Shown: in pieces, positions 11,470-41,966 of the stretch | Layout: every line of letters begins with the position of its first letter | Numbering within the stretch: the first letter of the stretch is position 1 | Assembly: GCA_040883315.1 (NCBI GenBank) | Contig: JBFLKU010000003.1 | Coordinates: 30,012 to 94,011, forward strand | Source: Eubacteriales bacterium | GTDB lineage: Bacteria; Bacillota; Clostridia; Christensenellales; UMGS416 | DNA: 64,000 nucleotides | Direction: 5' to 3' | Notes under the pieces: generated by a model | Seen by the model: only the letters and a program-made list of their open reading frames with translations | What the model was told of the DNA's origin: nothing | Database searches by the model: none | Translations under genes and position numbers: made by a program

Positions 11470-12279
11470 CTAGCCTAGTCCAACATCTAAGCCCATCATA
11501 ACCATGAAACCGATAACCACGCCTATGGTGGCTATATCGGAGTGTCCTTGGTGAGCTTCAGGTATCAATTCCTCTGCCACAACATATATCATAGCACCTG
11601 CTGCAAAAGCCAAAGCGTATGGAAGGATCGGTCTGAATGTCAGCACTGCGATTGCTCCCAGTACGCCGGCAATAGGCTCCACCATGCCGGAGAGCTGACC
11701 CCAGAAAAAGCTTTTGCCTCGTGACATTCCTTCCCTTCGAAGCGGCACAGAAACCGCAGCACCCTCTGGGAAGTTTTGTATTCCGATACCTACAGCCAAG
11801 GCTACAGCACCTGCCAGCGTTGCTCCGCTGAAATTGGCACCAACAGCACCAAATGCCACACCCACAGCCAGACCTTCCGGTATGTTGTGAAGAGTTATTG
11901 CGCTGACTAAAAGAATGCTTTTTCGCCAGTTCGATGTTAGTCCCTCTTTTTGTGTTCCGTCAGGGGTCATATGCATGTGCGGCAGCAGCTTGTCTGCACT
12001 AAACAAAAAAGCACAACCCATTCCAAAGCCTACCAGCACAACAATCCAAGCTGTCTGCCCTGAAGCTTCTGACATAGAAACTGCAGGTGCCAACAGTGAG
12101 AAAAAGCTGGCAGCAATCATAACACCGCTTGCAAATCCCAGCATTCCATCCAGCACTTTATAATTTATTTTTTTAAAGAAAAAAACTATTCCTGCACCTA
12201 GCATTGTCACTCCCCATGTGAAGAGTGTTCCGAAAAGAGCTTGGATTACAGGTGGGAATTGTCTTAAAAATTCTAACAT
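11470..12279 (-). CDS. ZIP-family divalent metal transporter (ZupT-like)
   Basis: 269 aa with 8 predicted TM segments. Signature HNIPEGLAVG and NFPEGAAV. Ends 9 nt before the MBL-rhodanese gene. Confidence 0.85.
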   Translation of the reverse strand: MLEFLRQFPPVIQALFGTLFTWGVTMLGAGIVFFFKKINYKVLDGMLGFASGVMIAASFFSLLAPAVSMSEASGQTAWIVVLVGFGMGCAFLFSADKLLPHMHMTPDGTQKEGLTSNWRKSILLVSAITLHNIPEGLAVGVAFGAVGANFSGATLAGAVALAVGIGIQNFPEGAAVSVPLRREGMSRGKSFFWGQLSGMVEPIAGVLGAIAVLTFRPILPYALAFAAGAMIYVVAEELIPEAHQGHSDIATIGVVIGFMVMMGLDVGLG

Positions 12280-12310
12280 ATATTATTCCTCTTTATTGAT
12301 TTAATATAAT

Positions 12311-12336
12311 AAAAAAAGGCTAAGAAAACCTAGCCT
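12311..12336 (-). terminator. intrinsic terminator after the rubredoxin-like gene
   Basis: On the minus strand: AGGCTAGgttttCTTAGCCT (one mismatch) followed by TTTTTTT. Confidence 0.6.
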
Positions 12337-12348
12337 CTTTTAAAAGTC

Positions 12349-12684
12349 TTACCATTTTCCTTTTCCAACGTGTCCAGCAATTTCTGCCTTTGAGCGTTGT
12401 TTTATTACCCAAGCTTCATCTAATGCATTTTTAAATAATGCAACGCATGGAGGATCTAGATTGATCTCTATTCCTTCCAATGCTAATTGCTGGATTTTTG
12501 CAGCTAATCCTACAATCTCCATATGTATATCGTTAGTTCTGTCTGAAGCATATACTTTGTCTGAAGCTTCTTTGCTTAACTCTTCAAATTTCTCTTTTGG
12601 TGCACCGCATTTTGGGCATGAATCTGGTGCTTCTTCTCCCTCGTGAATATATCCGCATACTGTACATTTGAACAATTTTTTCAT
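12349..12684 (-). CDS. rubredoxin-fold protein with an uncharacterised helical C-terminal domain
   Basis: N-terminal CTVCGYIH...CPKCGAPKEKF (two CxxC knuckles). ~70-aa C-terminal extension of unknown family. Confidence 0.55.
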   Translation of the reverse strand: MKKLFKCTVCGYIHEGEEAPDSCPKCGAPKEKFEELSKEASDKVYASDRTNDIHMEIVGLAAKIQQLALEGIEINLDPPCVALFKNALDEAWVIKQRSKAEIAGHVGKGKW

Positions 12685-12805
12685 ACTTTCTTCTCCTTTG
12701 CATGTTTTTTATATATCTAATCATACCATATGAAAGTACTATTTACAATATACACCAAGGCTATATTGTTAAATCCATGCTAATTATTTGAAGTAAGATT
12801 ATCAA

Positions 12806-13141
12806 TTAATGGTCACATACATTGTCTCCATATTCCAGCTCGTCATTCAGATATTTCTCCACCAATATATCAGGTGCAATAGAGGGAGCACCTACGCAGA
12901 CCTTTATATTTCGTTCCGCAAAAAGGCCTTGGGCTCTCTGACCCATTCCTCCTGTTATAATCAGCTGCACTTGCTTTTCTCCTAGCCATTTTGGAAGAAG
13001 TCCAGGCTCATGTGGGGGAGGCGTTACTAGTTCATATTTTGTTATGGCATTGTTTTTGTCTGTTTCGCATATGTAGAATTGCTGACAGTGACCGAAGTGA
13101 TTACAGAGTTTGTTATTCTGTATTGGTATAGCTATTTTCAT
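12806..13141 (-). CDS. NifX/NifB-like (MTH1175-like, dinitrogenase FeMo-cofactor-binding fold) protein
   Basis: 111 aa. MKIAIPIQNNKLCNHFGHCQQFYI and IITGGMGQRA are typical of the family. Starts 4 nt after the upstream gene's stop. Confidence 0.8.
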   Translation of the reverse strand: MKIAIPIQNNKLCNHFGHCQQFYICETDKNNAITKYELVTPPPHEPGLLPKWLGEKQVQLIITGGMGQRAQGLFAERNIKVCVGAPSIAPDILVEKYLNDELEYGDNVCDH

Positions 13142-13144
13142 TTT

Positions 13145-14023
13145 CTACTCCTTGTTATTTATAATATTTATATATTTGTTCCACATTTCATTTATGGATT
13201 TCGAAGCTTCACTTTTGGAGAATTCGATTATGGTTTTTTTGTGTATCTGTGCATTTGTAATTTCCTGGTCATAAGGCACTTTCCCTATCAAAGGTATGTT
13301 TCGAGCTGTAAGCATTTTTGCAATTTCTGCAGTTACATCTTCGTTTATATCGTATTTGTTTATGCATACATAGGAGCTGATGGAAAAATGCTTTGCTAAA
13401 TCTAAAACTCTTTGCATGTCGTGGACTCCAGATACTGTCGGTTCGGTGACAACTATTACGGAATCAACTCCGGTCATAGATGCTATCACAGGGCATCCGA
13501 TTCCGGGAGGACCATCAATTACTATATAGTCGCTCTTTTGGCTTGAGGCTATTTCTCTTGCTTTTCTTCGCACTTCGCTGACTAGCTTGCCGGAATTTTC
13601 AGCGGCTATAGATAGCTTTGCATGCACCATAGACCCGAATCTGGTATCTGAAACATAGTAGTGTCCGCATAATGAAGGCACAAAATCTATAGCTTTTTCT
13701 TGGCACACCCATGTACACACGCCGCACCCTTCGCACATTATGGGGTCTACCATGTACTTATTGTCAGTTTTCTTTATCGCATCAAATCTACAGCTTTCTA
13801 GGCATATACCGCAGGATATGCATTGGTTTTCTATTATGTTGGCTGTATGCCCAGAGATAAACTCATACTTTTCTTTTGTTTCAGGCTTTAGTATCAGGTG
13901 CAGGTCGGCTGCATCCACATCGCAGTCTGCAAAAACTGAGTTATGAGATAGTGATGCAATTGCACCAGTGATGCTGGTTTTGCCTGTTCCGCCTTTGCCG
14001 CTGACTATCAATATCTCTTTCAT
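13145..14023 (-). CDS. MinD/ParA-type P-loop ATPase with inserted 2x[4Fe-4S] ferredoxin domain
   Basis: Deviant Walker A SGKGGTGKT. CISCGICLESC and CEGCGVCTWVC motifs. ATGA overlap with the upstream paralog. Confidence 0.8.
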   Translation of the reverse strand: MKEILIVSGKGGTGKTSITGAIASLSHNSVFADCDVDAADLHLILKPETKEKYEFISGHTANIIENQCISCGICLESCRFDAIKKTDNKYMVDPIMCEGCGVCTWVCQEKAIDFVPSLCGHYYVSDTRFGSMVHAKLSIAAENSGKLVSEVRRKAREIASSQKSDYIVIDGPPGIGCPVIASMTGVDSVIVVTEPTVSGVHDMQRVLDLAKHFSISSYVCINKYDINEDVTAEIAKMLTARNIPLIGKVPYDQEITNAQIHKKTIIEFSKSEASKSINEMWNKYINIINNKE

Positions 14024-14856
14024 GCTACTACCTCTTGGATGTAAGAAAGCATATTATTAAGCTGAGCTTTTAATGATGGTATTGCATTTAAGATGCTGTT
14101 TCCATTGGAATATGCTTTTGCAGCTGCCATATTTTCAGGGATTTCTAATAGTATTTTTATATGGTTTTTTGCACAATATTCATGTATTTGCTTGTATTCT
14201 TTTTTTGCACGATTTATTACCACGCCAAAGGGTGTTTTAAGCGATTTTATAGTATCTACAGTTATTATCAAATCATTTAAGCCAAAAGGAGAAGCCTCTG
14301 TAACGAGCACTATATAGTCAGCTCCATTAATCGCAGTAATAAGAGGACATGAACTGCCGGGCGGGCAATCGATGATATTTATTATACTATCATCTATCCT
14401 TCTTTTTACTGCACGAATTAATGGAGGTGACATAGCACGGCCAATATCCAGTCTGCCCTGTGTAAAGGAAAGAGATTTAGATTGGGATGCTATAATCTTG
14501 CCGATAGGCATGTCTTGCTCTGATATAGCATTTTGAGGACATATCATTTCACATCCACCACAACCATGACATAGCTCATCAAAAATCAAAACATTATCTT
14601 TCAGCACGGCTATAACGTTAAACTGGCATATTTCCTGGCACTTGCCACAAAAAATACATTTATCTATATCAACAGAAGGTATAGGTATATTTACAGTTTC
14701 CTCCTTCGTGTTTTCTAAATCCAAAAATAAATCCGCATTAGGCTCTTCCACGTCGCAGTCCAATAGCTGCACTTTTTCGTCAATAGCCAAGGCTAGAGCA
14801 ATAGATATTGTGGTTTTTCCTGTTCCGCCTTTTCCGGAGGCAATGGCTATTTTCAT
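14020..14856 (-). CDS. MinD/ParA-type P-loop ATPase with inserted 2x[4Fe-4S] ferredoxin domain (paralog)
   Basis: SGKGGTGKT, CIFCGKCQEIC and CHGCGGCEMIC. Start moved to the ATG at 14856 (MKIAIASG), 1 nt after the NifX-like stop. The track start at 14880 would overlap that gene. Confidence 0.8.
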   Translation of the reverse strand: MKIAIASGKGGTGKTTISIALALAIDEKVQLLDCDVEEPNADLFLDLENTKEETVNIPIPSVDIDKCIFCGKCQEICQFNVIAVLKDNVLIFDELCHGCGGCEMICPQNAISEQDMPIGKIIASQSKSLSFTQGRLDIGRAMSPPLIRAVKRRIDDSIINIIDCPPGSSCPLITAINGADYIVLVTEASPFGLNDLIITVDTIKSLKTPFGVVINRAKKEYKQIHEYCAKNHIKILLEIPENMAAAKAYSNGNSILNAIPSLKAQLNNMLSYIQEVVA

Positions 14857-14857
14857 G

Positions 14858-15220
14858 CTACACCCAATGGCCTTCGACATTAGCGTCTGCCATTGAATGC
14901 AATTTTCTGCTTTTATACTGCTTAATATTATACATGATAGTTCCGTCTATTCCGGAATACACTTTGATGCCGGACGCTGAGAGCACTTTATATGCTTTGG
15001 GTCCGCAGTTTATTGTAATCAAAATATCTGCTCCAGCTTTTATTATTGTCTGGGCGGACTGTATGCCGGCACCTTGAGAAGACTCCATATTCTGAATGTT
15101 TTCTACTATATCAAAACTCATAGAGTCAGAATCGATAATAACAAAGTTTTTGGATCGACCAAATGATTTGCTTATTTCATCTTCTAATATATTGCTGTTT
15201 GTTGGGATTACTATTTTCAT
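14858..15220 (-). CDS. NifX/NifB-like (MTH1175-like) protein
   Basis: 120 aa. MKIVIPT...SFGRSKNFVI...ITINCGPKA family pattern. Confidence 0.8.
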   Translation of the reverse strand: MKIVIPTNSNILEDEISKSFGRSKNFVIIDSDSMSFDIVENIQNMESSQGAGIQSAQTIIKAGADILITINCGPKAYKVLSASGIKVYSGIDGTIMYNIKQYKSRKLHSMADANVEGHWV

Positions 15221-15286
15221 TTTTGCTCCAATTGTCTTTTATATGTGAATAAGCAACCTAAAAAATTAAGTTACTTATTCAATAAA

Positions 15287-15553
15287 TTAAAGGTTGTTTA
15301 GTTGTTCATCTAGGATAGATAGATCTTTCTCTAAAGAGATTTTTCTTTGGTTAAGCATTTCTTTCTTTTGCTCGTCAGTTAGCTCTACTGCCGAAAAAAG
15401 TCTGCCCATACCTCGGCCTCTTCTGCAGTTGCGGCCGCTGCCCATTCCGCGACCCATTGAGAAGCTATCGGCCTCTGTTTTGCCACAGTATCCTAGTCCC
15501 CTGCCTGTTTGCATGCCTGCACCCATTGGTCCAGTTCCATTCATTCCTGGCAT
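15287..15553 (-). CDS. DUF5320 protein
   Basis: 88 aa. G/M/P-rich N-terminus MPGMNGTGPMGAGMQTGRGLGYCG followed by a coiled-coil tail. AAGGAGGAA SD. Confidence 0.7.
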   Translation of the reverse strand: MPGMNGTGPMGAGMQTGRGLGYCGKTEADSFSMGRGMGSGRNCRRGRGMGRLFSAVELTDEQKKEMLNQRKISLEKDLSILDEQLNNL

Positions 15554-15601
15554 AGTTTAGTTCCTCCTTGTGCTTTATTGACATATGCCCTTTACAACTA
15601 C

Positions 15602-15629
15602 ATTATACTCAATAAAAAACATATGTCAA
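15602..15629 (-). promoter_or_regulatory. SigA-type promoter of the DUF5320/NifX/MinD-Fdx operon
   Basis: On the minus strand: TTGACA (15629-15624), 16 nt, TATAAT (15607-15602). Confidence 0.6.
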
Positions 15630-15653
15630 CAAATATTTAGATAAATTATTTTG

Positions 15654-15682
15654 TTGACACCTTTTTGAGAGAGTGATATTAT
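15654..15682 (+). promoter_or_regulatory. SigA-type promoter P1 of the DUF134-mrp operon
   Basis: TTGACA (15654-15659), 17 nt, TATTAT (15677-15682) preceded by TGa. Confidence 0.55.
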
Positions 15683-15725
15683 GAAAAGCGATATAGGGCA
15701 TATGTTCATTATTCGAATTTACAAT

Positions 15726-15753
15726 TTGACATAAAGGCTATTTAATCTATAAT
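15726..15753 (+). promoter_or_regulatory. SigA-type promoter P2 of the DUF134-mrp operon
   Basis: TTGACA (15726-15731), 16 nt, TATAAT (15748-15753). Confidence 0.5.
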
Positions 15754-15804
15754 AATTATGTGAAAAAGAGTAAAAGCTCTATTCTGCAAATAAAGGAGTG
15801 AGAT

Positions 15805-16170
15805 ATGCCAAGACCGACAAAATGGAGAAAAGTATGCTATATGCCTCGCAACACAGTCTTTGGTCCTATGGACAAAAGGCAAGATTCTGAAACCATTACT
15901 ATGATGGTGGATGAATATGAAACTATTAGACTGATAGATTTAGAGGGGCTGACGCAGGAAGAATGCGCAGAAAGAATGAATGTGGCGCGCACTACTGTGC
16001 AGCGAATATACACAATAGCCAGAAATAAACTGGCAAAATCCTTGGTAAACGGAAGTGTGCTGAAGATAGAGGGCGGTGAATACAAGCTGTGCACCGAAGA
16101 AGAAAGAATGAATGGATGCGGCAGATGCAAAAGAGGCCACTATGGGCAGATGACAGAAAATAATAATTAA
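15805..16170 (+). CDS. DUF134 (UPF0251) predicted DNA-binding protein with C-terminal Cys cluster
   Basis: [15 protein letters not shown]-terminus. Sigma-70 region-4-like [25 protein letters not shown]-terminal C...CGRC. Confidence 0.8.
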
Positions 16171-16197
16171 TTATTAAATAAACTTTTGGAGAAACAA

Positions 16198-17028
16198 ATG
16201 AGCGAAACATGCAACAATGACTGCAGCAGCTGTGCAGAAAGCTGCTCTGATAGAAAAGAAGAAAACACAGATTTTTCAGCAAAGCTAAATGATATGAGCA
16301 AGGTGGGAAAGGTCTACGCAGTAATCAGCGGAAAAGGCGGAGTAGGAAAATCCATGATTACCTCCATGATGGCTGCGGCTATGAACAAAAACGGATATAA
16401 GACAGCTGTTTTAGATGCAGATATAACAGGGCCGTCTATACCAAAGCTATTTGGTGTGGAAGCCAAAGCTATGCAGAATGAATTTGGCATATTGCCGTCA
16501 ATCAGCAAAAACGGAACTAAAATAATGTCTGTAAACCTGCTGCTGGAAAACAACACCGACCCTGTAGTATGGAGAGGACCAATAATAGCAAACGTAGTGA
16601 AACAATTCTGGACAGATGTGGTGTGGGGAGATGTAGACTATATGTTTATAGATATGCCTCCAGGAACAGGTGACGTGCCGCTGACAATATTTCAGTCTCT
16701 GCCTGTAGATGGGCTGATAGTTGTCACTTCGCCGCAGGAGCTGGTATCTATGATAGCCAGAAAAGCTGTGAGAATGGCAGAGATGATGAATGTGCCGATT
16801 ATAGCAATAGTCGAAAATATGTCATACTATACATGCCCGGACTGCGGAAATAAGCACAATATATTCGGGGAAAGCAAAATTGATGAAGTGGCAAAGGAGC
16901 ATTCCATTGATGTAGTTGCAAAGCTGCCGATCGATTCTGATATCGCTGCATTATCAGACAAAGGCGAAATTGAAAAATATGAAAGCGATGCGCTGAACGA
17001 AATAGTAGAAATAATCGAAAAAAAATAA
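16198..17028 (+). CDS. Mrp/NBP35/ApbC-family Fe-S cluster carrier ATPase
   Basis: Walker A SGKGGVGKS and CPDC bridging-cluster motif. Cys-rich N-terminus CNNDCSSCAESC. The track start at 16186 is TTG. The ATG at 16198 has a GGAGA SD 5 nt upstream. Confidence 0.85.
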   Translation: MSETCNNDCSSCAESCSDRKEENTDFSAKLNDMSKVGKVYAVISGKGGVGKSMITSMMAAAMNKNGYKTAVLDADITGPSIPKLFGVEAKAMQNEFGILPSISKNGTKIMSVNLLLENNTDPVVWRGPIIANVVKQFWTDVVWGDVDYMFIDMPPGTGDVPLTIFQSLPVDGLIVVTSPQELVSMIARKAVRMAEMMNVPIIAIVENMSYYTCPDCGNKHNIFGESKIDEVAKEHSIDVVAKLPIDSDIAALSDKGEIEKYESDALNEIVEIIEKK

Positions 17029-17052
17029 TAATATTTAAAATAGGAACTAAAG

Positions 17053-17079
17053 CACTTGCTAATGGGCAGGTGTTTTTTT
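17053..17079 (+). terminator. intrinsic terminator after mrp
   Basis: CACTTGCtaatggGCAGGTG (one mismatch) followed by TTTTTTT. Confidence 0.65.
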
Positions 17080-17129
17080 GTGCCTAAATGTCATTAAATT
17101 AAAGATTTCAGATATATATGGGTATATTT

Positions 17130-17158
17130 TTGGTGCAGAATAGATAGTATCATATAGT
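17130..17158 (+). promoter_or_regulatory. putative promoter of the ccdA-tlpA-msrAB-TCS operon
   Basis: TTGGTG, 17 nt, TATAGT. Confidence 0.4.
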
Positions 17159-17183
17159 TACAGAACAAAAGGAGAATAGGAAA

Positions 17184-17849
17184 ATGACAGAATTATATAT
17201 ATTAGGAGTATTTATCGGAGGAATAGCATCCTTCTTCTCACCGTGCATAGTGCCGGTACTCCCTGTATACGTTTCAATACTAGCAGGTGATGAAACTAAG
17301 GAAAAAGCCAGAGTGAGAGCTGTAGCGAGGACTATGTTATTTGTTCTAGGACTCTCGGTAGCTTTTGTGACAATGGGATTTGGAGTAGGTGCACTGGGCA
17401 AAGTACTATATAGCAAGACATTTATATATGTAAGCGGTGCAATTGTCATTCTGCTGGGACTATATCAAATGGGTCTGTTTAAGCTGAAGTTTTTAAACAG
17501 GCAGATGAAGATGAATGTTAATGCCAACAAAAAGACAGGATACTTTAGCGTATTTTTGCTGGGATTGGTTTTCAGCTTCGGATGGACACCATGCGTAGGG
17601 CCAATACTGGCGGCGGTTCTTTCGCTGACAGCCAGCCAAGGCAATGCGGCATACGGCGGATTTATGATGTTTGTTTACTCGCTGGGACTGGCAATTCCCT
17701 TTTTGGTGATATCGATATTCTCGGCAACCATACTGACAAAGGTAAAGGCCATAAACAAACATTTAGACAAAATAAAATTTATCGGTGGACTAATTATAGT
17801 GATTATGGGTATCCTGCTGATGACTGGAAATTTAAACTTATTACTATAG
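17184..17849 (+). CDS. ccdA: cytochrome c biogenesis protein CcdA (DsbD-family thiol-disulfide electron transporter)
   Basis: 221 aa, 6 TM segments. Conserved FFSPCIVPVLP and FGWTPCVGP cysteine motifs. Confidence 0.85.
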   Translation: MTELYILGVFIGGIASFFSPCIVPVLPVYVSILAGDETKEKARVRAVARTMLFVLGLSVAFVTMGFGVGALGKVLYSKTFIYVSGAIVILLGLYQMGLFKLKFLNRQMKMNVNANKKTGYFSVFLLGLVFSFGWTPCVGPILAAVLSLTASQGNAAYGGFMMFVYSLGLAIPFLVISIFSATILTKVKAINKHLDKIKFIGGLIIVIMGILLMTGNLNLLL

Positions 17850-17885
17850 ACATTGAATGTATATCAAAGACATAAGGAGAGAAAA

Positions 17886-18500
17886 ATGAAAAAATTAATT
17901 ATATTATTATCTGTTGTGGCAGCTTCAGCATTGGTGCTGGCAGCATGCGCACCAAAGGCTATGGATGAAGTGAATACAGAAGATAGCATGACACCAGACA
18001 CCCAAGACACAATGGAAGACAACACGATGGAAGAACAAGAGATGACAAAAGAGGATACTAGCATGGAAGAAGAGGACATGAGTCCGAATTTTCTAGATGT
18101 CACTATGATGGATGTAGATGGAAATGAGTGGAATCTAGCAGAGCTAGGCGACGAAGCAGTGGTTAAGGTATGGGCATCGTGGTGCTCTATATGCCTGGCA
18201 GGAATGGATGAATACAATACTTTCGCCGGTGAATATACAGACGCAAAGGTATTGACAGTGGTATCGCCCGGAATGCTGGGTGAGCAAAGCAAGGAAGACT
18301 TTGTAAGCTGGTTTAAATCGCTGGACGGAGTGGAAAACATTGTGGTTATTCTGGATGAAGACGGACTTTTGATTAAGAACCTTGGCATCAGAGGATTTCC
18401 TACATATGTTTACCTGAACTCAAATGGAAGAGCTGACAGCATTGCAGTGGGACATCAGCAAACAGCTGACGTAGTGGCAAAGCTGGAATCTATCCAGTAA
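17886..18500 (+). CDS. TlpA/ResA-like thioredoxin-fold lipoprotein
   Basis: Lipoprotein signal [21 protein letters not shown]. Acidic linker. CXXC site WASWCSIC. Start moved to the ATG at 17886, which has an AAGGAGA SD. Confidence 0.8.
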
Positions 18501-18510
18501 AGGAGATATT

Positions 18511-19620
18511 ATGAAGTATGCACTAGTAGCAATTGCTATTGTTATAGTGGCAATAGCAGGAGTGATATGGCTGACACCAAGCAAAGATGCTGCAGCTATT
18601 GCTGCGACAGAGCAGGACAGCAAAGAAGAAATGGTATACAATGAAGATGATGTTCGTGAGATATACTTGGCAGGAGGCTGTTTCTGGGGACTGGAGGAAT
18701 ACTTCTCCAGAGTGGAAGGCGTGGTAGACGCAACAGTGGGCTACGCCAACGGAAACACAGAAAACCCAACATACAAGGAAGTATGCTATGACAATACAGG
18801 ACATGCAGAGACAGTGCATGTGATGTATGACAGCTCGGTGATAAACCTGACAGAGGTTTTGAAATATTACTTTAGAGTGGTGGACCCCACCAGTCTGAAC
18901 AAGCAGGGAAATGATGTGGGAACACAATACAGATCCGGAATATACTACACAAATGAAGACGACAGGCAAGTGATACTATATGCCATGGAAACAGAGCAAA
19001 AGAAGCATGACAAAGAGCTGGTGGTGGAAGTAGAGCCATTAGACGGATATTATCTGGCAGAGGAGTATCATCAGGATTATTTGAAAAAGAATCCAAACGG
19101 ATACTGCCATATCAGCGTGGACTACGCCGAGGTGCCGCTAGAAAAACCTGTATTGAAAACGGAGGGAATTATGATAGACGAAAGCAAATATCAAAAACCT
19201 AGTGACGAAGAACTAAAAGAAAAATTAACACCGCTTCAATATGATGTGACACAAACAGGAGCAACTGAGAGAGCATTTGGCAATGAATACTATGACAACT
19301 ATGCAGAAGGAATTTATGTAGACGTTGTGACTGGTGAACCGTTATTTTCATCAAATGACAAATACGATTCTGGATGCGGATGGCCAAGCTTCACCAAGCC
19401 TATTGTGCCCGAAGTTGTTGAAGAATTTTCAGATACATCATATAATATGATTAGAACAGAGGTAAGAAGCCGTGCAGGTGATTCTCACCTAGGTCATGTT
19501 TTTGAAGATGGACCAAAGGACTCCGGCGGATTGAGATACTGCATCAACAGTGCATCAATCAGGTTTATACCGGTGGAAGAAATGGAAGCAGAAGGATATG
19601 GATACCTTCTAGAGGATTGA
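18511..19620 (+). CDS. msrAB: membrane-anchored bifunctional methionine sulfoxide reductase MsrA/MsrB
   Basis: N-terminal TM anchor. MsrA motif GGCFWG and MsrB motif RYCINS with CGWPSF. 369 aa. Confidence 0.92.
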
Positions 19621-39959: not shown

Positions 39960-41966
39960 TTAAATTGTAGAATTGAATATATACATTATGTCGTTCTTGC
40001 TTATTGGTTTATAGAAATAATATCCTTGGAAAAGGTTACATCCGTATTCTGTCAGCAGGCGCAATTGGTCTTCTGTTTCAACACCTTCAGCTACCAGCTC
40101 ATAGTTGTTCTTTGTAGATATTTCTACCAGCATCTTTGTGATGGACAAACTGATTGCACTGGTCATGATGTTATCAACGAATGATTTATCCAGTTTGATT
40201 TCGTCAAAGCTGATTGTATGCAGCTTAGACAGTGTGGAATATTCTGTACCAAAGTCGTCCATAGAGATTAGGCAGCCGGCTTCTTTTATTTCTTGAACTA
40301 CCTTCAGAGATCTTGTGAAGTCTCCTTCGAAGAATGACTCTGTAACTTCTATGTTTATTACGCCTCTTGGTATATTGTATCTTTTCATCAGCTGTGCCAG
40401 AACAGTAGTAAACTCATCGTCAAATAGCTGCTGAGGAGACACGTTGATTGAAATACTAATTGGATTATTTACACAGTATCTAGTTTTTATAAAGTCATTG
40501 TAGTCTTTAAACACAGCTTCTATTACCATGTATGCAAATTCATGAACTATTGACATACGCTCAATACGATTGATGAAATACCATGGAGAAAGTATACCTT
40601 TTTCTGGGTGATTCCATCTTGCCAAAGCTTCTAGCTTTGCGATTTTTTCCTTTTTGAAGTCAACAATCGGCTGATAATAAAGTATGAATTCATTATCATA
40701 AAAAGCTTTCTCTATTTCGTTTTCCCATCTGTGCTCTTCCACTATGTCGTCCACCATCTTTTGGTCGAATATACATAGCTCGTTTTTGCCTATTTTAGGT
40801 GCATTGGAGTTGGCGATTTCAGAGTACATTATTATCTCATCTATACTTGCAGAGTTCAGCGGGGCATATGCGATACCTGCACTAATCATCAGGTTATAGA
40901 TACCACCTCTAATCAGGGATGCTTGCTTAATAAATTTTCTTGCAGCATTCTCTATTTGTGTCTCCACAGTATATGGCATAACTACCATGAAATCACCGTC
41001 ACCAGTTTTAGCAACAAGTGCATTGTTTGGTGAATACTCTTTAAGAATGGTTGCAAATATTTTTATACAGTCATCAAATGCAGTCTGACCGTAAATATCC
41101 TTGGTCTCTTTGATATTTTGAATTGTCAGGGTCATAACTCCGTATTGGTTTGATGAAATATCCAGAGATTTCATACCAGTAATCAATCCGTCTCTGTTCA
41201 GCAAAGTGGTCAAGTGGTCGTGTGTTGCCAGATATTGAAGTCTTATTTCGTTTTTTGCTTCTTCTGTAACGTCACGCAGGAATACTATCATTCCCTTATC
41301 CATATCAGATTTGTCTATTGGGCTGATTGTCATATTCATTGTCAGCTCTTTGCCGGATTCGGTTGCAATCTTAAGGGGAAGATTTTTTACGGTAACGCCT
41401 TTTCTAGCCTTTGCCACTTCGTATGCTACGCATGAAGAGAAGTTTCCACCTGTGGCTATGCCTTTTACAGTGGACGGGAATTCTGTTCTCAATGTATCCT
41501 TTGCAGGGCATTGTGCGTCTGTGCACTTGGTTCCAGATGTTTTAAAGCAAACCACGTTGTGAAGCTTTTTACCTAGGATTTCCTGCTCTTTCACTTCAAA
41601 CAAATCAAGAACGGCAGAGTTTATAAATGTTATATTACCATTTTTATTTAATCCAATAATAGGATCGACAATACTTTGCACTATTTGCGATGAGTATGCT
41701 CCGCCTCCACGCCTAGCTTTATTGTGAAGTTTCCCATTGAATGCTACTAAAAGAATAAATATCAATGTGATGGCTATAATTAATGGAATTACAACCCTTA
41801 GCGGAACGGAATCATCCAAGCTCAAATTGCTTAGAATATCCATAAATCCATTACTAGTATCAGGAGCCATAGTGCTTGCCGCATATGCAACAGCGCTGAC
41901 GCCATATGCTACTAGTAATGTTAACATGAATACTATAGCTACTACATACTTTTTTCCCTTTTTCAT
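39960..41966 (-). CDS. membrane-anchored PAS / degenerate GGDEF / EAL protein (likely c-di-GMP phosphodiesterase)
   Basis: Two N-terminal TM segments, then a PAS domain. The GGDEF position reads GDGDF. EAL motifs are intact (EALARW, DDFGTEYS, KLDKSF, EGVE). Confidence 0.85.
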   Translation of the reverse strand: MKKGKKYVVAIVFMLTLLVAYGVSAVAYAASTMAPDTSNGFMDILSNLSLDDSVPLRVVIPLIIAITLIFILLVAFNGKLHNKARRGGGAYSSQIVQSIVDPIIGLNKNGNITFINSAVLDLFEVKEQEILGKKLHNVVCFKTSGTKCTDAQCPAKDTLRTEFPSTVKGIATGGNFSSCVAYEVAKARKGVTVKNLPLKIATESGKELTMNMTISPIDKSDMDKGMIVFLRDVTEEAKNEIRLQYLATHDHLTTLLNRDGLITGMKSLDISSNQYGVMTLTIQNIKETKDIYGQTAFDDCIKIFATILKEYSPNNALVAKTGDGDFMVVMPYTVETQIENAARKFIKQASLIRGGIYNLMISAGIAYAPLNSASIDEIIMYSEIANSNAPKIGKNELCIFDQKMVDDIVEEHRWENEIEKAFYDNEFILYYQPIVDFKKEKIAKLEALARWNHPEKGILSPWYFINRIERMSIVHEFAYMVIEAVFKDYNDFIKTRYCVNNPISISINVSPQQLFDDEFTTVLAQLMKRYNIPRGVINIEVTESFFEGDFTRSLKVVQEIKEAGCLISMDDFGTEYSTLSKLHTISFDEIKLDKSFVDNIMTSAISLSITKMLVEISTKNNYELVAEGVETEDQLRLLTEYGCNLFQGYYFYKPISKNDIMYIFNSTI

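What the first reader, a model, noticed from the sequence alone, without database searches (positions are those of the whole stretch)
15581..15705. Exact 11-bp inverted repeat placed just downstream of both divergent promoters: candidate shared operator
ACATATGCCCT (15581-15591) and its exact reverse complement AGGGCATATGT (15695-15705) bracket the divergent control region. Each arm sits just downstream of a near-consensus outward-facing promoter. On the minus strand that promoter is TTGACA-16-TATAAT at 15629-15602. On the plus strand it is TTGACA-17-TATTAT at 15654-15682. Both predicted transcripts would therefore begin with GGGCATATGT(C/T) at about +5 to +20, in the same orientation. A third CATATG-centred copy (GTTGACATATGTT on the minus strand, 15630-15619) overlaps the minus -35. 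Three CATATG cores within ~125 bp is far more than composition predicts. A second plus-strand promoter (15726-15753) lies beyond the box and could give box-independent expression of the DUF134-mrp genes. The symmetric layout suggests one repressor, or a DNA loop, co-regulating both operons. The adjacent DUF134 HTH/Cys protein is the obvious candidate, possibly sensing metal or Fe-S status.
Basis: partly seen in the sequence, partly recalled or inferred. Interest (0 to 1): 0.62.

Follow-up and report, generated by a model that had tools for sequence, protein, structure and literature searches.

The report
Conserved operator boxes of DUF134–ORP regulon
The 11-bp inverted repeat is real, and it is a fragment of a widely conserved set of 'TTATTGACATATG' boxes that sit on and just downstream of the promoters of an anaerobe-specific metal-cluster (ORP-like) gene cluster; the boxes are most likely the operators of the neighbouring, still uncharacterised DUF134 regulator.

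Summary
Taken alone the repeat is only marginally unusual (P≈0.03). Its significance comes from comparison.

TTGACATATG is the most widespread 10-mer upstream of DUF134 genes (67 of 80 species). It normally occurs as a pair of ~14–20-nt inverted arms (GTTATTGACATATGyyc … grrCATATGTCAATAAC) offset by 42–43 bp. Arm 1 includes the −35 hexamer, and arm 2 lies about +8 to +20 downstream of a near-consensus TATAAT.

The window's minus-strand promoter is a textbook copy: boxes A (15575-15591) and B (15620-15632).

A motif-only metagenome scan gave 120 loci. Of these, 108 carry ORP-type genes and 90 carry DUF134. All 19 loci with long flanks on both sides carry ORP genes, and 17 of them carry DUF134.

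DUF134 has a σ-region-4-like HTH and conserved cysteines, and it is often fused to the NifX-like domain encoded in the regulated operon.

Best reading: a dedicated, autoregulated DUF134 repressor co-controls both divergent operons. It is the Bacillota counterpart of the σ54/OrpR control of the Desulfovibrio orp operons. Binding, sign of regulation and signal are untested. The literature I could search describes neither the motif nor the regulator.

The parts
15574..15594 (.). Box A (TTTATTGACATATGCCCTTTA). On the plus strand its TTGACA is also the -35 of a weak mirror promoter (15578-15606).
   Evidence: PWM 25.3 bits, the top hit in the window. Invariant in the 3-genome alignment. Arm of inverted repeat I1. 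Geometry is modal for 142 oriented units.
15602..15607 (-). -10 hexamer TATAAT of the minus-strand (DUF5320/ORP operon) promoter. It lies 16 nt from the -35 and 14 nt before the CATATG of box A.
   Evidence: 12/12. The modal spacer is 16 nt and the modal distance to the box is 14-15 nt across loci. Conserved in L001 and L002.
15613..15633 (.). Box B (TAAAAAACATATGTCAACAAA; minus strand TTTGTTGACATATGTTTTTTA). It is 'box 1' of the minus-strand promoter and includes its -35 TTGACA (15629-15624).
   Evidence: PWM 22.8 bits. The 42-bp offset to box A is the modal offset (54 of 131 pairs at 42, 38 at 43). Invariant core.
15654..15682 (+). Promoter P1 of the DUF134-mrp operon: TTGACA-17-TATTAT with a TG extension. 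Its -35 region (TTGACACCTT) is a degenerate box 1.
   Evidence: 11/12, TG present. The -35 and TG-n-TATTAT are conserved in L001 and L002.
15692..15713 (.). Box C (TATAGGGCATATGTTCATTATT). The outer half is damaged (GAACATATG in place of TTGACATATG).
   Evidence: Exact 11-mer. PWM only 10.6 bits, within the shuffle range. The GGCATATG core is invariant in L001 and L002, and L001 has a full box, GGGCATATGTCAATAA.
15726..15753 (+). Promoter P2 (TTGACA-16-TATAAT). It has no downstream box and is probably a box-independent source of DUF134 and Mrp.
   Evidence: 12/12. Both hexamers are invariant in L001 and L002.
15805..16170 (+). DUF134/UPF0251 protein (121 aa), the candidate box-binding regulator. 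It has a sigma-region-4-like HTH, a conserved N-terminal R-P-x-K..V-C-x-L-P arm, and Cys11/54/96/105/108.
   Evidence: Pfam PF02001 at 74.9 bits; Sigma70_r4 at 27.1 bits. Foldseek hits to sigma region 4 and DeoR HTHs. Cys conservation. Fusions to Nitro_FeMo-Co.
16186..17028 (+). Mrp/NBP35-type Fe-S carrier ATPase (MrpORP-like P-loop domain without the C-terminal NifX-like domain), co-transcribed with DUF134.
   Evidence: Pfam ParA/NUBPL 296.7 bits. NCBIfam MrpORP 329.5 bits, below the 450 cutoff, covering positions 1-240 of 365.
12806..15553 (-). Box-controlled ORP-like operon:
- DUF5320 (15553-15287)
- Nitro_FeMo-Co protein (15220-14858)
- two MinD-like ATPases with 2x[4Fe-4S] ferredoxin inserts (14880-14020 and 14023-13145)
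- a second Nitro_FeMo-Co protein (13141-12806)

A rubredoxin-like gene (12684-12349) and a ZIP transporter (12279-11470) follow on the same strand.
   Evidence: The same gene order follows the box pair in most of the 200 related loci.

Best explanation
The 250-bp region is the shared control region of a split ORP-like gene cluster.

**The sites.** It carries three copies of one operator box. The outer half-site, GTTATTGACAT|ATG, is strongly conserved. The inner half, yyCwwwA, is weaker. Each box is therefore a ~20-bp pseudo-palindrome centred on CATATG.
- Boxes A and B bracket the -10 of a consensus sigma-A promoter that drives DUF5320, NifX-like, MinD/Fer4 x2 and NifX-like genes leftwards. 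Box B covers the -35. Box A covers about +5 to +21.
- Box C is a weakened copy. It occupies the same downstream position at P1, one of two tandem promoters driving DUF134-mrp rightwards.

**Proposed mechanism (inferred).** The 121-aa DUF134 protein binds each box, probably as a dimer, through its sigma-region-4-like HTH. The target sequence contains the -35 hexamer TTGACA. Binding would exclude RNA polymerase from these otherwise constitutive promoters. The result is one repressor that shuts off the ORP operon tightly (two strong boxes) and its own operon partially (one weak box at P1, none at P2).

**Proposed signal (speculative).** Release would follow a redox, metal or cluster signal. It could be read through the conserved cysteines, through a NifX-like partner protein, or both. 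This is by analogy with the Fe-S redox sensor OrpR, which controls the two divergent orp operons of Desulfovibrio.

**Status of each step**
- Shown: the sites, their conservation, their geometry and their exclusive association with this gene cluster.
- Inferred: who binds them, and that the effect is repression.
- Speculative: the signal.
For: **1. Conservation in loci chosen by protein only (80 species).**
- TTGACATATG (<=1 mismatch) occurs 220 times against 41-56 in shuffles, in 78 of 80 loci.
- It is the commonest 10-mer in the 600 bp upstream of DUF134 (67 of 80), and all top-25 10-mers are shifts of one motif. The control maximum is 6 of 70.

**2. Fixed architecture.**
- Inverted arms are offset 42 bp (54 pairs) or 43 bp (38 pairs) out of 131.
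- The gene-facing -10 is TATAAT in 83 of 142 units.
- The spacer is 16 nt (103 units) or 17 nt (36 units).
- The CATATG of the downstream box starts 14-15 nt after the -10 in 103 of 142 units.
- The window's minus-strand promoter has all the modal values.

**3. Footprint in the two closest relatives.** These share the same divergent layout, with DUF134 78-83% identical. Boxes A, B and C, the three promoters and the RBS are invariant islands in diverged spacers.

**4. Reverse test.** The box-pair pattern alone retrieved 120 metagenome loci.
- 108 have ORP-type genes and 90 have DUF134 within 3.5 kb.
- Among the 19 loci with >=3 kb on both sides, 19 have ORP genes and 17 have DUF134.
- 94 of 120 have an ORP-type gene starting <=700 bp from the boxes.

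**5. Regulon.** The first gene after the boxes is DUF134 (67 units), DUF5320 (56) or a NifX-like gene (15). The typical operon is box > (DUF5320) > DUF134 > NifX > MinD/Fer4 x2 > Mrp > NifX. DUF134 is the only DNA-binding-type protein consistently present.

**6. The protein.**
- The HTH matches sigma-70 region 4 by Pfam and by fold, at rmsd 0.5-0.9 A over 40-49 residues against -35-binding domains and DeoR.
- 10 of 10 long family representatives tested are DUF134 + Nitro_FeMo-Co fusions.
- Cys11, Cys96 and Cys108 are kept in 77-90% of 60 diverse representatives.

**7. Sign of regulation.** Consensus promoters need no activator, and sites over the -35 and the early transcribed region are repressor positions (established principle).

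**8. TTGACA in the downstream box.** That box is inverted and cannot serve sigma-A for the gene-facing promoter, yet its TTGACA is as conserved as in the upstream box.
Against: - There is no binding, expression or TSS data for any member. The DUF134-box link is guilt by association.
- No covariation test between the recognition helix and the box was possible, because both are nearly invariant in the sampled clade.
- Box C alone is not distinguishable from chance by PWM: 10.6 bits, while shuffles reach 9-19. In L002 its outer half is lost. Autoregulation at P1 may therefore be weak or absent in this lineage.
- The two half-site TTGACA elements of a perfect box are only 8 bp apart centre to centre, which is tight for a classical HTH dimer. 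Stoichiometry is open.
- The centre-to-centre distance between boxes (38-39 bp, about 3.6 turns) does not put two dimers on one DNA face. Cooperative tetramer models are not favoured.
- The AF2 model is only moderate (pLDDT 74.7; the termini carrying the Cys are 34-66). No metal site can be asserted.
- Some box pairs on long contigs have no DUF134 within 3.5 kb (L165, L198).
Confidence: 0.65

Rival explanations
1. The boxes are genuine operator sites, but the protein that binds them is not DUF134. It could be DUF5320 or a regulator encoded elsewhere, and DUF134 would be just another regulon member.
For: - DUF5320 is the first gene after the boxes in 56 of 142 units.
- Two long contigs have the boxes and ORP genes but no DUF134 within 3.5 kb.
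- No direct evidence ties DUF134 to the DNA.
Against: - DUF134 is the only HTH protein consistently in the cluster.
- It lies within 3.5 kb of 17 of 19 fully covered box pairs.
- DUF5320 matches no DNA-binding family (Pfam: DUF5320 only), and it is absent from many box-headed operons (67 units start directly with DUF134).
- To my knowledge the motif does not resemble the Fur, Rex, PerR, IscR, CodY or cre consensus sequences.
- A regulon this narrow is typical of a local regulator.
Confidence: 0.15
2. DUF134 binds the boxes but acts positively. It would be an activator, or a detached sigma-region-4-like module that recruits or redirects RNA polymerase to TTGACATATG-type -35 elements, rather than a repressor.
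For: - The HTH is sigma-region-4-like, and the box contains the -35 hexamer.
- To my knowledge, split or two-subunit sigma factors exist in Bacillota.
- In Desulfovibrio the orp regulator is an activator (PMC8359166).
Against: - The promoters are already 11-12/12 matches to the sigma-A consensus with optimal spacing.
- A second, inverted box sits at about +8..+20, where an activator or sigma module has no known role.
- DUF134 has no sigma region 2 partner in the cluster.
Confidence: 0.08
3. No dedicated factor is involved. The inverted arms would simply be the two -35 elements of a mirror-symmetric bidirectional sigma-A promoter sharing one central -10 (TTGACA-17-hexamer-17-TGTCAA = 52 bp, the 42-bp offset).
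For: - The geometry fits exactly.
- The away-facing -10 keeps A2 and T6 in 83% of units.
- 15 units do sit between divergent ORP genes.
- The window has a 10/12 plus-strand promoter in box A.
Against: - Conservation extends well beyond TTGACA, into GTTA upstream and TATG(yyc) downstream at 1.3-1.9 bits per position. Sigma-A does not require that.
- 142 of 181 units face a recognised ORP-type gene on one side only (24 more face none) and still keep the inverted arm, and the away-facing -10 is weaker: 4.3 against 5.4 of 6.
- The 26 specified bases are found almost only next to ORP clusters, which generic promoter elements would not be.
- Box C keeps the CATATG core while losing the -35-like part.
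Confidence: 0.06
4. The shared GGGCAUAUGU at the 5' end of both transcripts is an RNA-level signal, such as a leader structure, an RNA-binding-protein site or an sRNA site.
For: The downstream boxes are predicted to be transcribed in both operons (geometry).
Against: - The identical inverted copy lies upstream of the TSS, over the -35.
- Neither predicted 5'UTR is structured: z = +1.0 and +0.16.
- There is no Rfam match; the best E-value is 0.14, and that hit is unrelated.
- The dyad symmetry is a DNA-site property.
Confidence: 0.03

Closest known systems
Desulfovibrio vulgaris Hildenborough orp1/orp2 operons controlled by sigma54, OrpR (DVU2106) and IHF (PMC3897727, PMC8359166, PMC6345978)
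   Same: - Same kind of genes: orange-protein-type Nitro_FeMo-Co proteins, two MinD-like Fe-S ATPases and an Mrp/NBP35 carrier.
- Two divergent operons share one control region.
- Palindromic sites for one dedicated local regulator sit in front of each operon.
- The regulator gene lies in the cluster and is negatively autoregulated.
- The regulon is essentially limited to the cluster.
- The regulator carries conserved cysteines. In OrpR these hold a redox-sensing [4Fe-4S] cluster.
   Different: - Here there is no sigma54 promoter: no GG-N10-GC core on either strand.
- There is no EBP.
- The promoters are consensus sigma-A type.
- The sites overlap the promoter (-35 and +8..+20) rather than lying at -88 and -131, which implies repression rather than activation.
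- The motif is unrelated: TTGACATATGTCAA against GGGCGYRTTTTGCGCCC.
- The regulator is a 121-aa DUF134 protein.
Classical autoregulated repressors of divergent promoters with multiple operators, e.g. Tn10 TetR/tetO (own knowledge)
   Same: One small HTH repressor gene is transcribed divergently from the genes it controls. Dyad-symmetric operators overlap the core promoters in a short shared intergenic region. Regulator and target are repressed together.
   Different: - The protein family is unrelated.
- The boxes here contain the -35 hexamer itself in both arms.
- The two strong boxes bracket the -10 of only one of the promoters.
- The regulator's own operon has an extra box-free promoter (P2).
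Sigma-70 region 4 / ECF sigma region 4 recognition of -35 elements, and SorC/DeoR-type N-terminal HTH repressors (PDB 2h27, 5fgm, 7bhy, found)
   Same: The HTH fold superposes at 0.5-0.9 A over 40-49 residues. Pfam Sigma70_r4 scores above its cutoff. The DNA target contains TTGACA.
   Different: DUF134 has no sigma region 2 or 3. It has extra N- and C-terminal beta-strands and a Cys-rich tail. Foldseek E-values are weak (>=0.047) because the shared domain is small. Sequence similarity to any solved structure is insignificant.
Symmetric bidirectional bacterial promoters that share a -10 region (own knowledge: Warman et al., Nat Microbiol 2021)
   Same: The layout is -35 ... shared central -10 ... 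inverted -35, with 16-18-nt spacers on both sides. In 15 units, and possibly in the window, both directions face genes.
   Different: Conservation goes far beyond the promoter hexamers, and it is specific to one gene cluster. Most units are used in one direction only.

Membership tests
Repressor-type operator at a sigma-A promoter | The site is conserved in orthologous regulatory regions while the flanks diverge. | tested here: met
   67 of 80 species carry the exact 10-mer, and the boxes are invariant islands in the 3-genome alignment.
Repressor-type operator at a sigma-A promoter | Dyad symmetry compatible with an oligomeric HTH protein. | tested here: met
   Arms are inverted. Perfect 14-20-bp palindromes (TTATTGACATATGTCAATAA) occur in L044, L046, L048, L068 and L070. 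In most sites the inner half is degenerate.
Repressor-type operator at a sigma-A promoter | The site overlaps core promoter elements or the early transcribed region. | tested here: met
   This rests on promoter prediction only. Box 1 contains the -35, and the core of box 2 starts 14-15 nt after the -10. No experimental TSS is available.
Repressor-type operator at a sigma-A promoter | Specific binding by a repressor, and derepression when the repressor or site is lost. | not testable with these tools
   Needs EMSA or footprinting plus genetics.
Desulfovibrio-type orp regulation (sigma54 + OrpR + IHF) | A sigma54 -24/-12 promoter (GG-N10-GC) in front of each operon. | tested here: not met
   There is no GG-N10-GC on either strand of 15554-15804. 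The best match to TGGCAC-N5-TTGCA has 4 mismatches of 11.
Desulfovibrio-type orp regulation (sigma54 + OrpR + IHF) | An enhancer-binding protein gene (PAS-AAA+-HTH) in the cluster, with a GGGCGYRTTTTGCGCCC site. | tested here: not met
   Pfam and NCBIfam scans of the genes from 11470 to 17849 show no AAA+ EBP. The conserved motif is unrelated.
ORP (orange protein complex) gene cluster | Orange-protein-type Nitro_FeMo-Co proteins, two MinD-like Fe-S ATPases and an Mrp/NBP35 protein, arranged in two divergent operons. | tested here: met
   One caveat: the Mrp here lacks the C-terminal Nitro_FeMo-Co domain and scores 329.5 against the MrpORP equivalog cutoff of 450. The NifX-like domain is encoded separately (128.7 bits to the C-terminal part of that model).
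ORP (orange protein complex) gene cluster | The proteins form the ORP complex and bind a Mo/Cu or Fe-S cofactor. | not testable with these tools
   Biochemistry is required.
DUF134 / UPF0251 (Pfam PF02001) | Match to the family model above the curated threshold. | tested here: met
   74.9 bits against a cutoff of 27. 5588 relatives at 90% clustering and 4830 clusters at 50%.
cis-regulatory RNA (riboswitch or leader) | Conserved secondary structure in the transcript, or a match to a known RNA family. | tested here: not met
   No significant Rfam hit. The predicted UTRs are not more stable than shuffles.
Symmetric bidirectional promoter | Functional -35/-10 pairs on both strands sharing the -10 region. 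| tested here: inconclusive
   The geometry fits, and the away-facing hexamer averages 4.3 of 6. The window's plus-strand partner is 10/12. Activity is not testable here.

The most novel reading that the evidence does not exclude
DUF134/UPF0251 would be a large, unstudied family of sigma-region-4-like repressors. They would work by imitating sigma-A's own -35 recognition: they sit on TTGACA-containing palindromes on both sides of the -10. They would be switched by the state of a metallocluster, sensed through a Cys4-type site that staples the N- and C-termini, through a NifX/orange-protein-like domain supplied in cis (fusions) or in trans, or through both. In Bacillota this module would replace the sigma54/OrpR redox switch of Desulfovibrio. 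That would make ORP-cluster expression a direct read-out of cofactor or redox status.
Probability: 0.3. Interest if true: 0.75.

Novelty: new member of a known kind. Interest (0 to 1): 0.58.

Why it matters
DUF134/UPF0251 (COG1342) is a widespread family: 4830 clusters at 50% identity. It is annotated only as a 'predicted DNA-binding protein'.

The ORP complex it accompanies is anaerobe-specific and important for normal cell morphology in Desulfovibrio, and its function is still unclear (PMC8359166).

This locus, read alongside about 200 related loci, yields three things:
- a precise DNA motif;
- a promoter architecture;
- a narrow regulon for the family.

The function of DUF134 therefore becomes directly testable by EMSA, reporter assays and DAP-seq. 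The work also shows that the same gene set is wired through two unrelated regulatory solutions: a sigma54 activator in Desulfovibrio and a sigma-A repressor in Bacillota.

The fusions to the NifX-like cofactor-binding domain suggest what the signal might be. That in turn could help reveal what the ORP machinery makes or carries.

For annotation, the box is a ready-made marker of ORP-regulon genes in Clostridia, acetogens and Desulfotomaculia.

Tried and rejected
1. **Known RNA family.** The Rfam E-value scan of 15000-16400 gave only chance-level hits.
2. **More sites in the window.** The PWM scan found only boxes A and B above noise. The 12.4-bit hit at 40544-40565 lies in coding sequence with no -10 and is within the shuffle range.
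3. **Literature.**
   - DUF134, UPF0251, COG1342 and DUF5320 as whole words gave only incidental mentions.
   - A first search with word-start matching returned DUF134x families only.
   - The motif strings returned only NdeI-site cloning primers.
   - Fievet 2011 (PMC3133258) is not held.
4. **EarA lead.** Foldseek hit 8hnp ('archaeal transcription factor'). From memory, the euryarchaeal archaellum regulator EarA binds TACATA repeats. I could not establish from the held papers that EarA is a DUF134 protein. I dropped the lead as untested and did not use it.
5. **Solved structures by sequence.** No significant relative was found. The best E-value was 0.033, to a DeoR HTH.
6. **Sigma54 promoter, as in Desulfovibrio.** Absent.
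7. **Covariation between the recognition helix and the box.** This was not feasible. R62, T64, Q66 and Y69 and the box core are nearly invariant in everything sampled. The more distant family members returned by the representative search cannot be traced to contigs with the allowed tools.
Full report
**1. The observation**

They are the only exact copies in the window.

- minus strand 15629-15602, 12/12;
- plus strand P1 15654-15682, 11/12 with a TG extension;
- plus strand P2 15726-15753, 12/12.

It also finds a fourth plus-strand site at 15578-15606 (10/12).

Internal statistics are weak.
- An exact inverted repeat of >=11 bp appears in about 3% of composition-matched shuffles of the 251-bp spacer.
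- A cluster of three CATATG appears in about 6% of shuffled windows.
- CATATG is not enriched overall.

The left arm and the 'third copy' belong to a longer 21-nt inverted repeat, TTTATTGACATATGCCCTTTA / TAAAAAACATATGTCAACAAA. So 'TTGACATATG' is itself repeated in inverted orientation.

**2. The genes**

*Minus strand.* It encodes DUF5320, a Nitro_FeMo-Co (NifX/orange-protein-like) protein, two MinD-like ATPases with ferredoxin inserts and a second Nitro_FeMo-Co protein. A rubredoxin-like protein and a ZIP transporter follow.

*Plus strand.* It encodes DUF134, whose HTH also matches sigma-70 region 4, and an Mrp/NBP35 ATPase that best matches NCBIfam 'MrpORP'. CcdA, a thioredoxin-like lipoprotein and MsrAB follow.

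This is the gene set of the orange-protein (ORP) complex of Desulfovibrio vulgaris. There it is also encoded by two divergent operons (PMC6345978).

**3. Comparative footprinting**

The DUF134 protein has thousands of relatives. The identical protein comes from a MAG labelled 'Eubacteriales bacterium'.

I fetched 80 species-level genome loci using the protein alone.
- Their upstream regions show a striking common architecture.
- TTGACATATG (<=1 mismatch) occurs 220 times against 41-56 expected, in 78 of 80 loci.
- An unbiased 10-mer census of the 600 bp upstream of DUF134 ranks TTGACATATG first (67 of 80 loci).
- Every one of the top 25 10-mers is a shifted piece of one motif, GTTATTGACATATG(y)(y)C / (A)AAGGGCATATGTCAATAAC. 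No 10-mer exceeds 6 of 70 loci in control segments.

**4. Architecture**

The boxes come in inverted pairs with a sharply peaked start-to-start offset: 42 bp in 54 pairs and 43 bp in 38 pairs, of 131.

I oriented 142 units by their downstream gene.
- The gene-facing -10 is a perfect TATAAT in 83 units.
- The spacer after TTGACA is 16 nt (103 units) or 17 nt (36 units).
- The CATATG of the second box starts 14-15 nt after the -10 in 103 units.

So box 1 contains the -35, and box 2 covers roughly +8 to +20.

The consensus of the 52-nt units is TTGACATATGtc...AAtg..gTATAATaaaatt.TAAatgaCATATGTCAA. The window's minus-strand unit is TTGACATATGTTTTTTATTGAGTATAATGTAGTTGTAAAGGGCATATGTCAA. It has every modal value.

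- The left arm is box 2 of the minus-strand promoter.
- The 'third copy' is box 1 of the same promoter.
- The right arm is the corresponding downstream box of plus-strand promoter P1, whose own box 1 has decayed to TTGACACCTT.

A PWM gives 25.3 and 22.8 bits for boxes A and B. It gives 10.6 bits for box C, which is inside the range reached by shuffled sequence.

Box C is supported instead by position and by conservation. In the two closest relatives (L001 and L002, same divergent layout) boxes A, B and C, P1, P2 and the RBS are invariant islands among diverged spacers. In L001 box C is a full GGGCATATGTCAATAA.

**5. Regulon and the reverse test**

In most Bacillota the box pair heads a single operon: (DUF5320) - DUF134 - NifX-like - MinD/Fer4 - MinD/Fer4 - Mrp - NifX-like. 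Extra box pairs precede other NifX, Mrp or DUF5320 units. The window's lineage has split this operon into two divergent halves around the control region.

Those loci were all chosen through DUF134. I therefore ran the test in the other direction and scanned metagenomes for TTATTGACATATG-N27-34-CATATGTCAATAA alone.
- Of the 19 loci with at least 3 kb on both sides, all have ORP genes and 17 have DUF134.
- In 94 of 120 loci an ORP-type gene starts within 700 bp of the boxes.
- Loci without hits mostly carried short contigs or weak homologues. A few revealed further members: a small ferredoxin with an HdrD-like protein, and a CbiM-like transporter.

The boxes are thus specific to this gene cluster, and divergent arrangements around one box pair are common.

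**6. The candidate regulator**

*Fold.* DUF134 is the only DNA-binding-type protein consistently present. Its modelled HTH (pLDDT ~90 in the core, 74.7 overall) superposes on -35-binding sigma region 4 domains and on DeoR/SorC HTHs, at 0.5-0.9 A over 40-49 residues. No full-length relative has a solved structure.

*Family-wide features.* The family is large: 4830 clusters at 50% identity. All ten ~240-290-aa representatives I scanned are DUF134 fused to Nitro_FeMo-Co. This is an independent Rosetta-stone-type link between the regulator and the NifX-like proteins of the regulon. Across 60 diverse representatives:
- R3, P4, P14, R62 and Y69 are invariant;
- Cys11, Cys96 and Cys108 are kept in 77-90%;
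- Cys54 is kept in 73%, and Cys105 in 55%, with alignment gaps.

*The TTGACA argument.* TTGACA is as conserved in the downstream, inverted box as in the upstream one. There it cannot serve sigma-A for the gene-facing promoter. This argues that TTGACA is read by the regulator. That is a notable match for a sigma-region-4-like HTH, but it is inference only.

**7. Mechanism and rivals**

*Best explanation (0.65).* DUF134 is a dedicated, autoregulated repressor. It occupies boxes B and A to block the ORP-operon promoter, and box C to damp P1 of its own operon. P2 provides box-independent expression.

*Grounds for repression.* It is inferred from the consensus quality of the promoters and from the site positions.

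*Signal.* It is unknown. By analogy with OrpR ([4Fe-4S], redox potential; PMC8359166), and from the Cys pattern and the NifX-domain fusions, I favour redox or metallocluster status.

*Rivals.*
- Another protein binds the boxes (0.15).
- DUF134 acts positively or as a sigma-like module (0.08).
- The unit is a purely symmetric bidirectional promoter (0.06). The geometry TTGACA-17-hexamer-17-TGTCAA fits. But conservation extends far beyond the hexamers, most units are unidirectional with a weaker away-facing -10 (4.3 against 5.4 of 6), and the sequence is cluster-specific.
- An RNA leader element (0.03). There is no structure (z +1.0 and +0.16), no Rfam hit, and an identical copy lies upstream of the TSS.
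- Pure chance, which the comparative data exclude.

*Open points.*
- Box stoichiometry is unresolved, because the half-site TTGACA centres are only 8 bp apart.
- The box-to-box distance is not helically phased (38-39 bp).
- It is unclear whether box C is still functional.

**8. Comparison with what is known**

The closest system is the D. vulgaris orp locus.
- Shared: the same genes, two divergent operons, one local Cys-containing regulator with a regulon limited to the cluster, and negative autoregulation (PMC3897727, PMC8359166).
- Not shared: the defining features of that regulatory system are absent here. There is no sigma54 core promoter and no EBP, the motif is unrelated, and the sites are at repressor rather than enhancer positions.

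Functionally it resembles classic divergent repressor/operator modules such as TetR/tetO (own knowledge).

The searchable literature contains nothing on DUF134/UPF0251/COG1342 or DUF5320 function, and nothing on the motif.

**9. Verdict**

The operator idea and the candidate regulator hold. The delineation of the element, the pairing of arms and the chance argument do not.
- This is a new member of a known kind: a repressor-operator module. It belongs to an uncharacterised, widespread regulator family and a poorly understood anaerobe-specific gene cluster.
- Interest 0.58.

Noticed in passing
window 15238-15286 (minus strand), and after DUF5320 in 66 related loci: A stable stem-loop follows the DUF5320 stop codon directly. 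In the window it is ATAAGTAACTTAA..TTAGGTTGCTTAT, dG -18.2, z -4.3. Across 67 loci the median z is -3.2, and 64% have z < -2. The stem sequences differ (e.g. AAGTAACAGGGG..CCCCTGTTACTT, CAGGGAAAGAA..TTCTTTCCCTG), usually with no U-tract. It looks like a conserved intercistronic RNA element, perhaps a partial terminator or stabiliser that sets the ratio of DUF5320 to downstream genes.
   Followed up: partly
P0125, P0128, P0129, P0136, P0142, P0147, P0148, P0164, P0180, P0218 (family representatives): All ten ~240-290-aa DUF134 representatives tested are N-terminal DUF134 fused to a C-terminal Nitro_FeMo-Co (NifX/orange-protein-like) domain. This suggests the NifX-like domain is the sensory or ligand module of the regulator family.
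   Followed up: partly
window 15578-15606 (+): Box A's TTGACA, with CATTAT 17 nt downstream, forms a 10/12 plus-strand promoter that mirrors the minus-strand one and shares its -10 region. The box pair may therefore fire in both directions and give a third transcript towards DUF134. In 15 related units a single box pair sits between divergent ORP genes.
   Followed up: partly
window 17184-19620 (+): Directly downstream of DUF134-mrp on the same strand lie CcdA/DsbD-type thiol-disulfide transporter, TlpA-like thioredoxin lipoprotein and fused MsrA-MsrB genes. This is an extracytoplasmic oxidative-repair module. CcdA and TlpA also follow in relative L002, further downstream. I did not examine whether they are co-transcribed with the regulator.
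   Followed up: no
window 11470-12684 (-): A rubredoxin-like (rubrerythrin C-terminal type) gene and a ZIP-family metal transporter continue the minus-strand ORP operon. Rubredoxin-like genes also end the operon in L001, L002, L085 and L131. This hints at a metal or redox theme.
   Followed up: no
L108 1030-1433, L146 1937-3686, L198 3794-5513: Box pairs found by motif alone also head operons for other genes: a 62-aa ferredoxin (MIA(E/I)V.QDECIGCESCPEFCPE...) followed by what looks by eye like an HdrD/CCG-type Fe-S protein, and a probable CbiM-like metal-transport gene downstream of a NifX-like gene. These identifications are by eye, not by family scan. They are possible further regulon members.
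   Followed up: partly
L044 950-1010, L046 3905-3918, L048 3589-3602, L068 4434-4447, L070 3895-3908: Some genomes carry perfect 14-20-bp palindromic boxes (TTATTGACATATGTCAATAA). Most boxes keep only the outer half-site. These would be useful as ideal probes for binding assays.
   Followed up: no
window 14858-14880 and 14020-14023: Consecutive ORP-operon genes overlap: NifX-like with MinD/Fer4 by 23 nt, and the two MinD/Fer4 genes by 4 nt. This is consistent with translational coupling.
   Followed up: no
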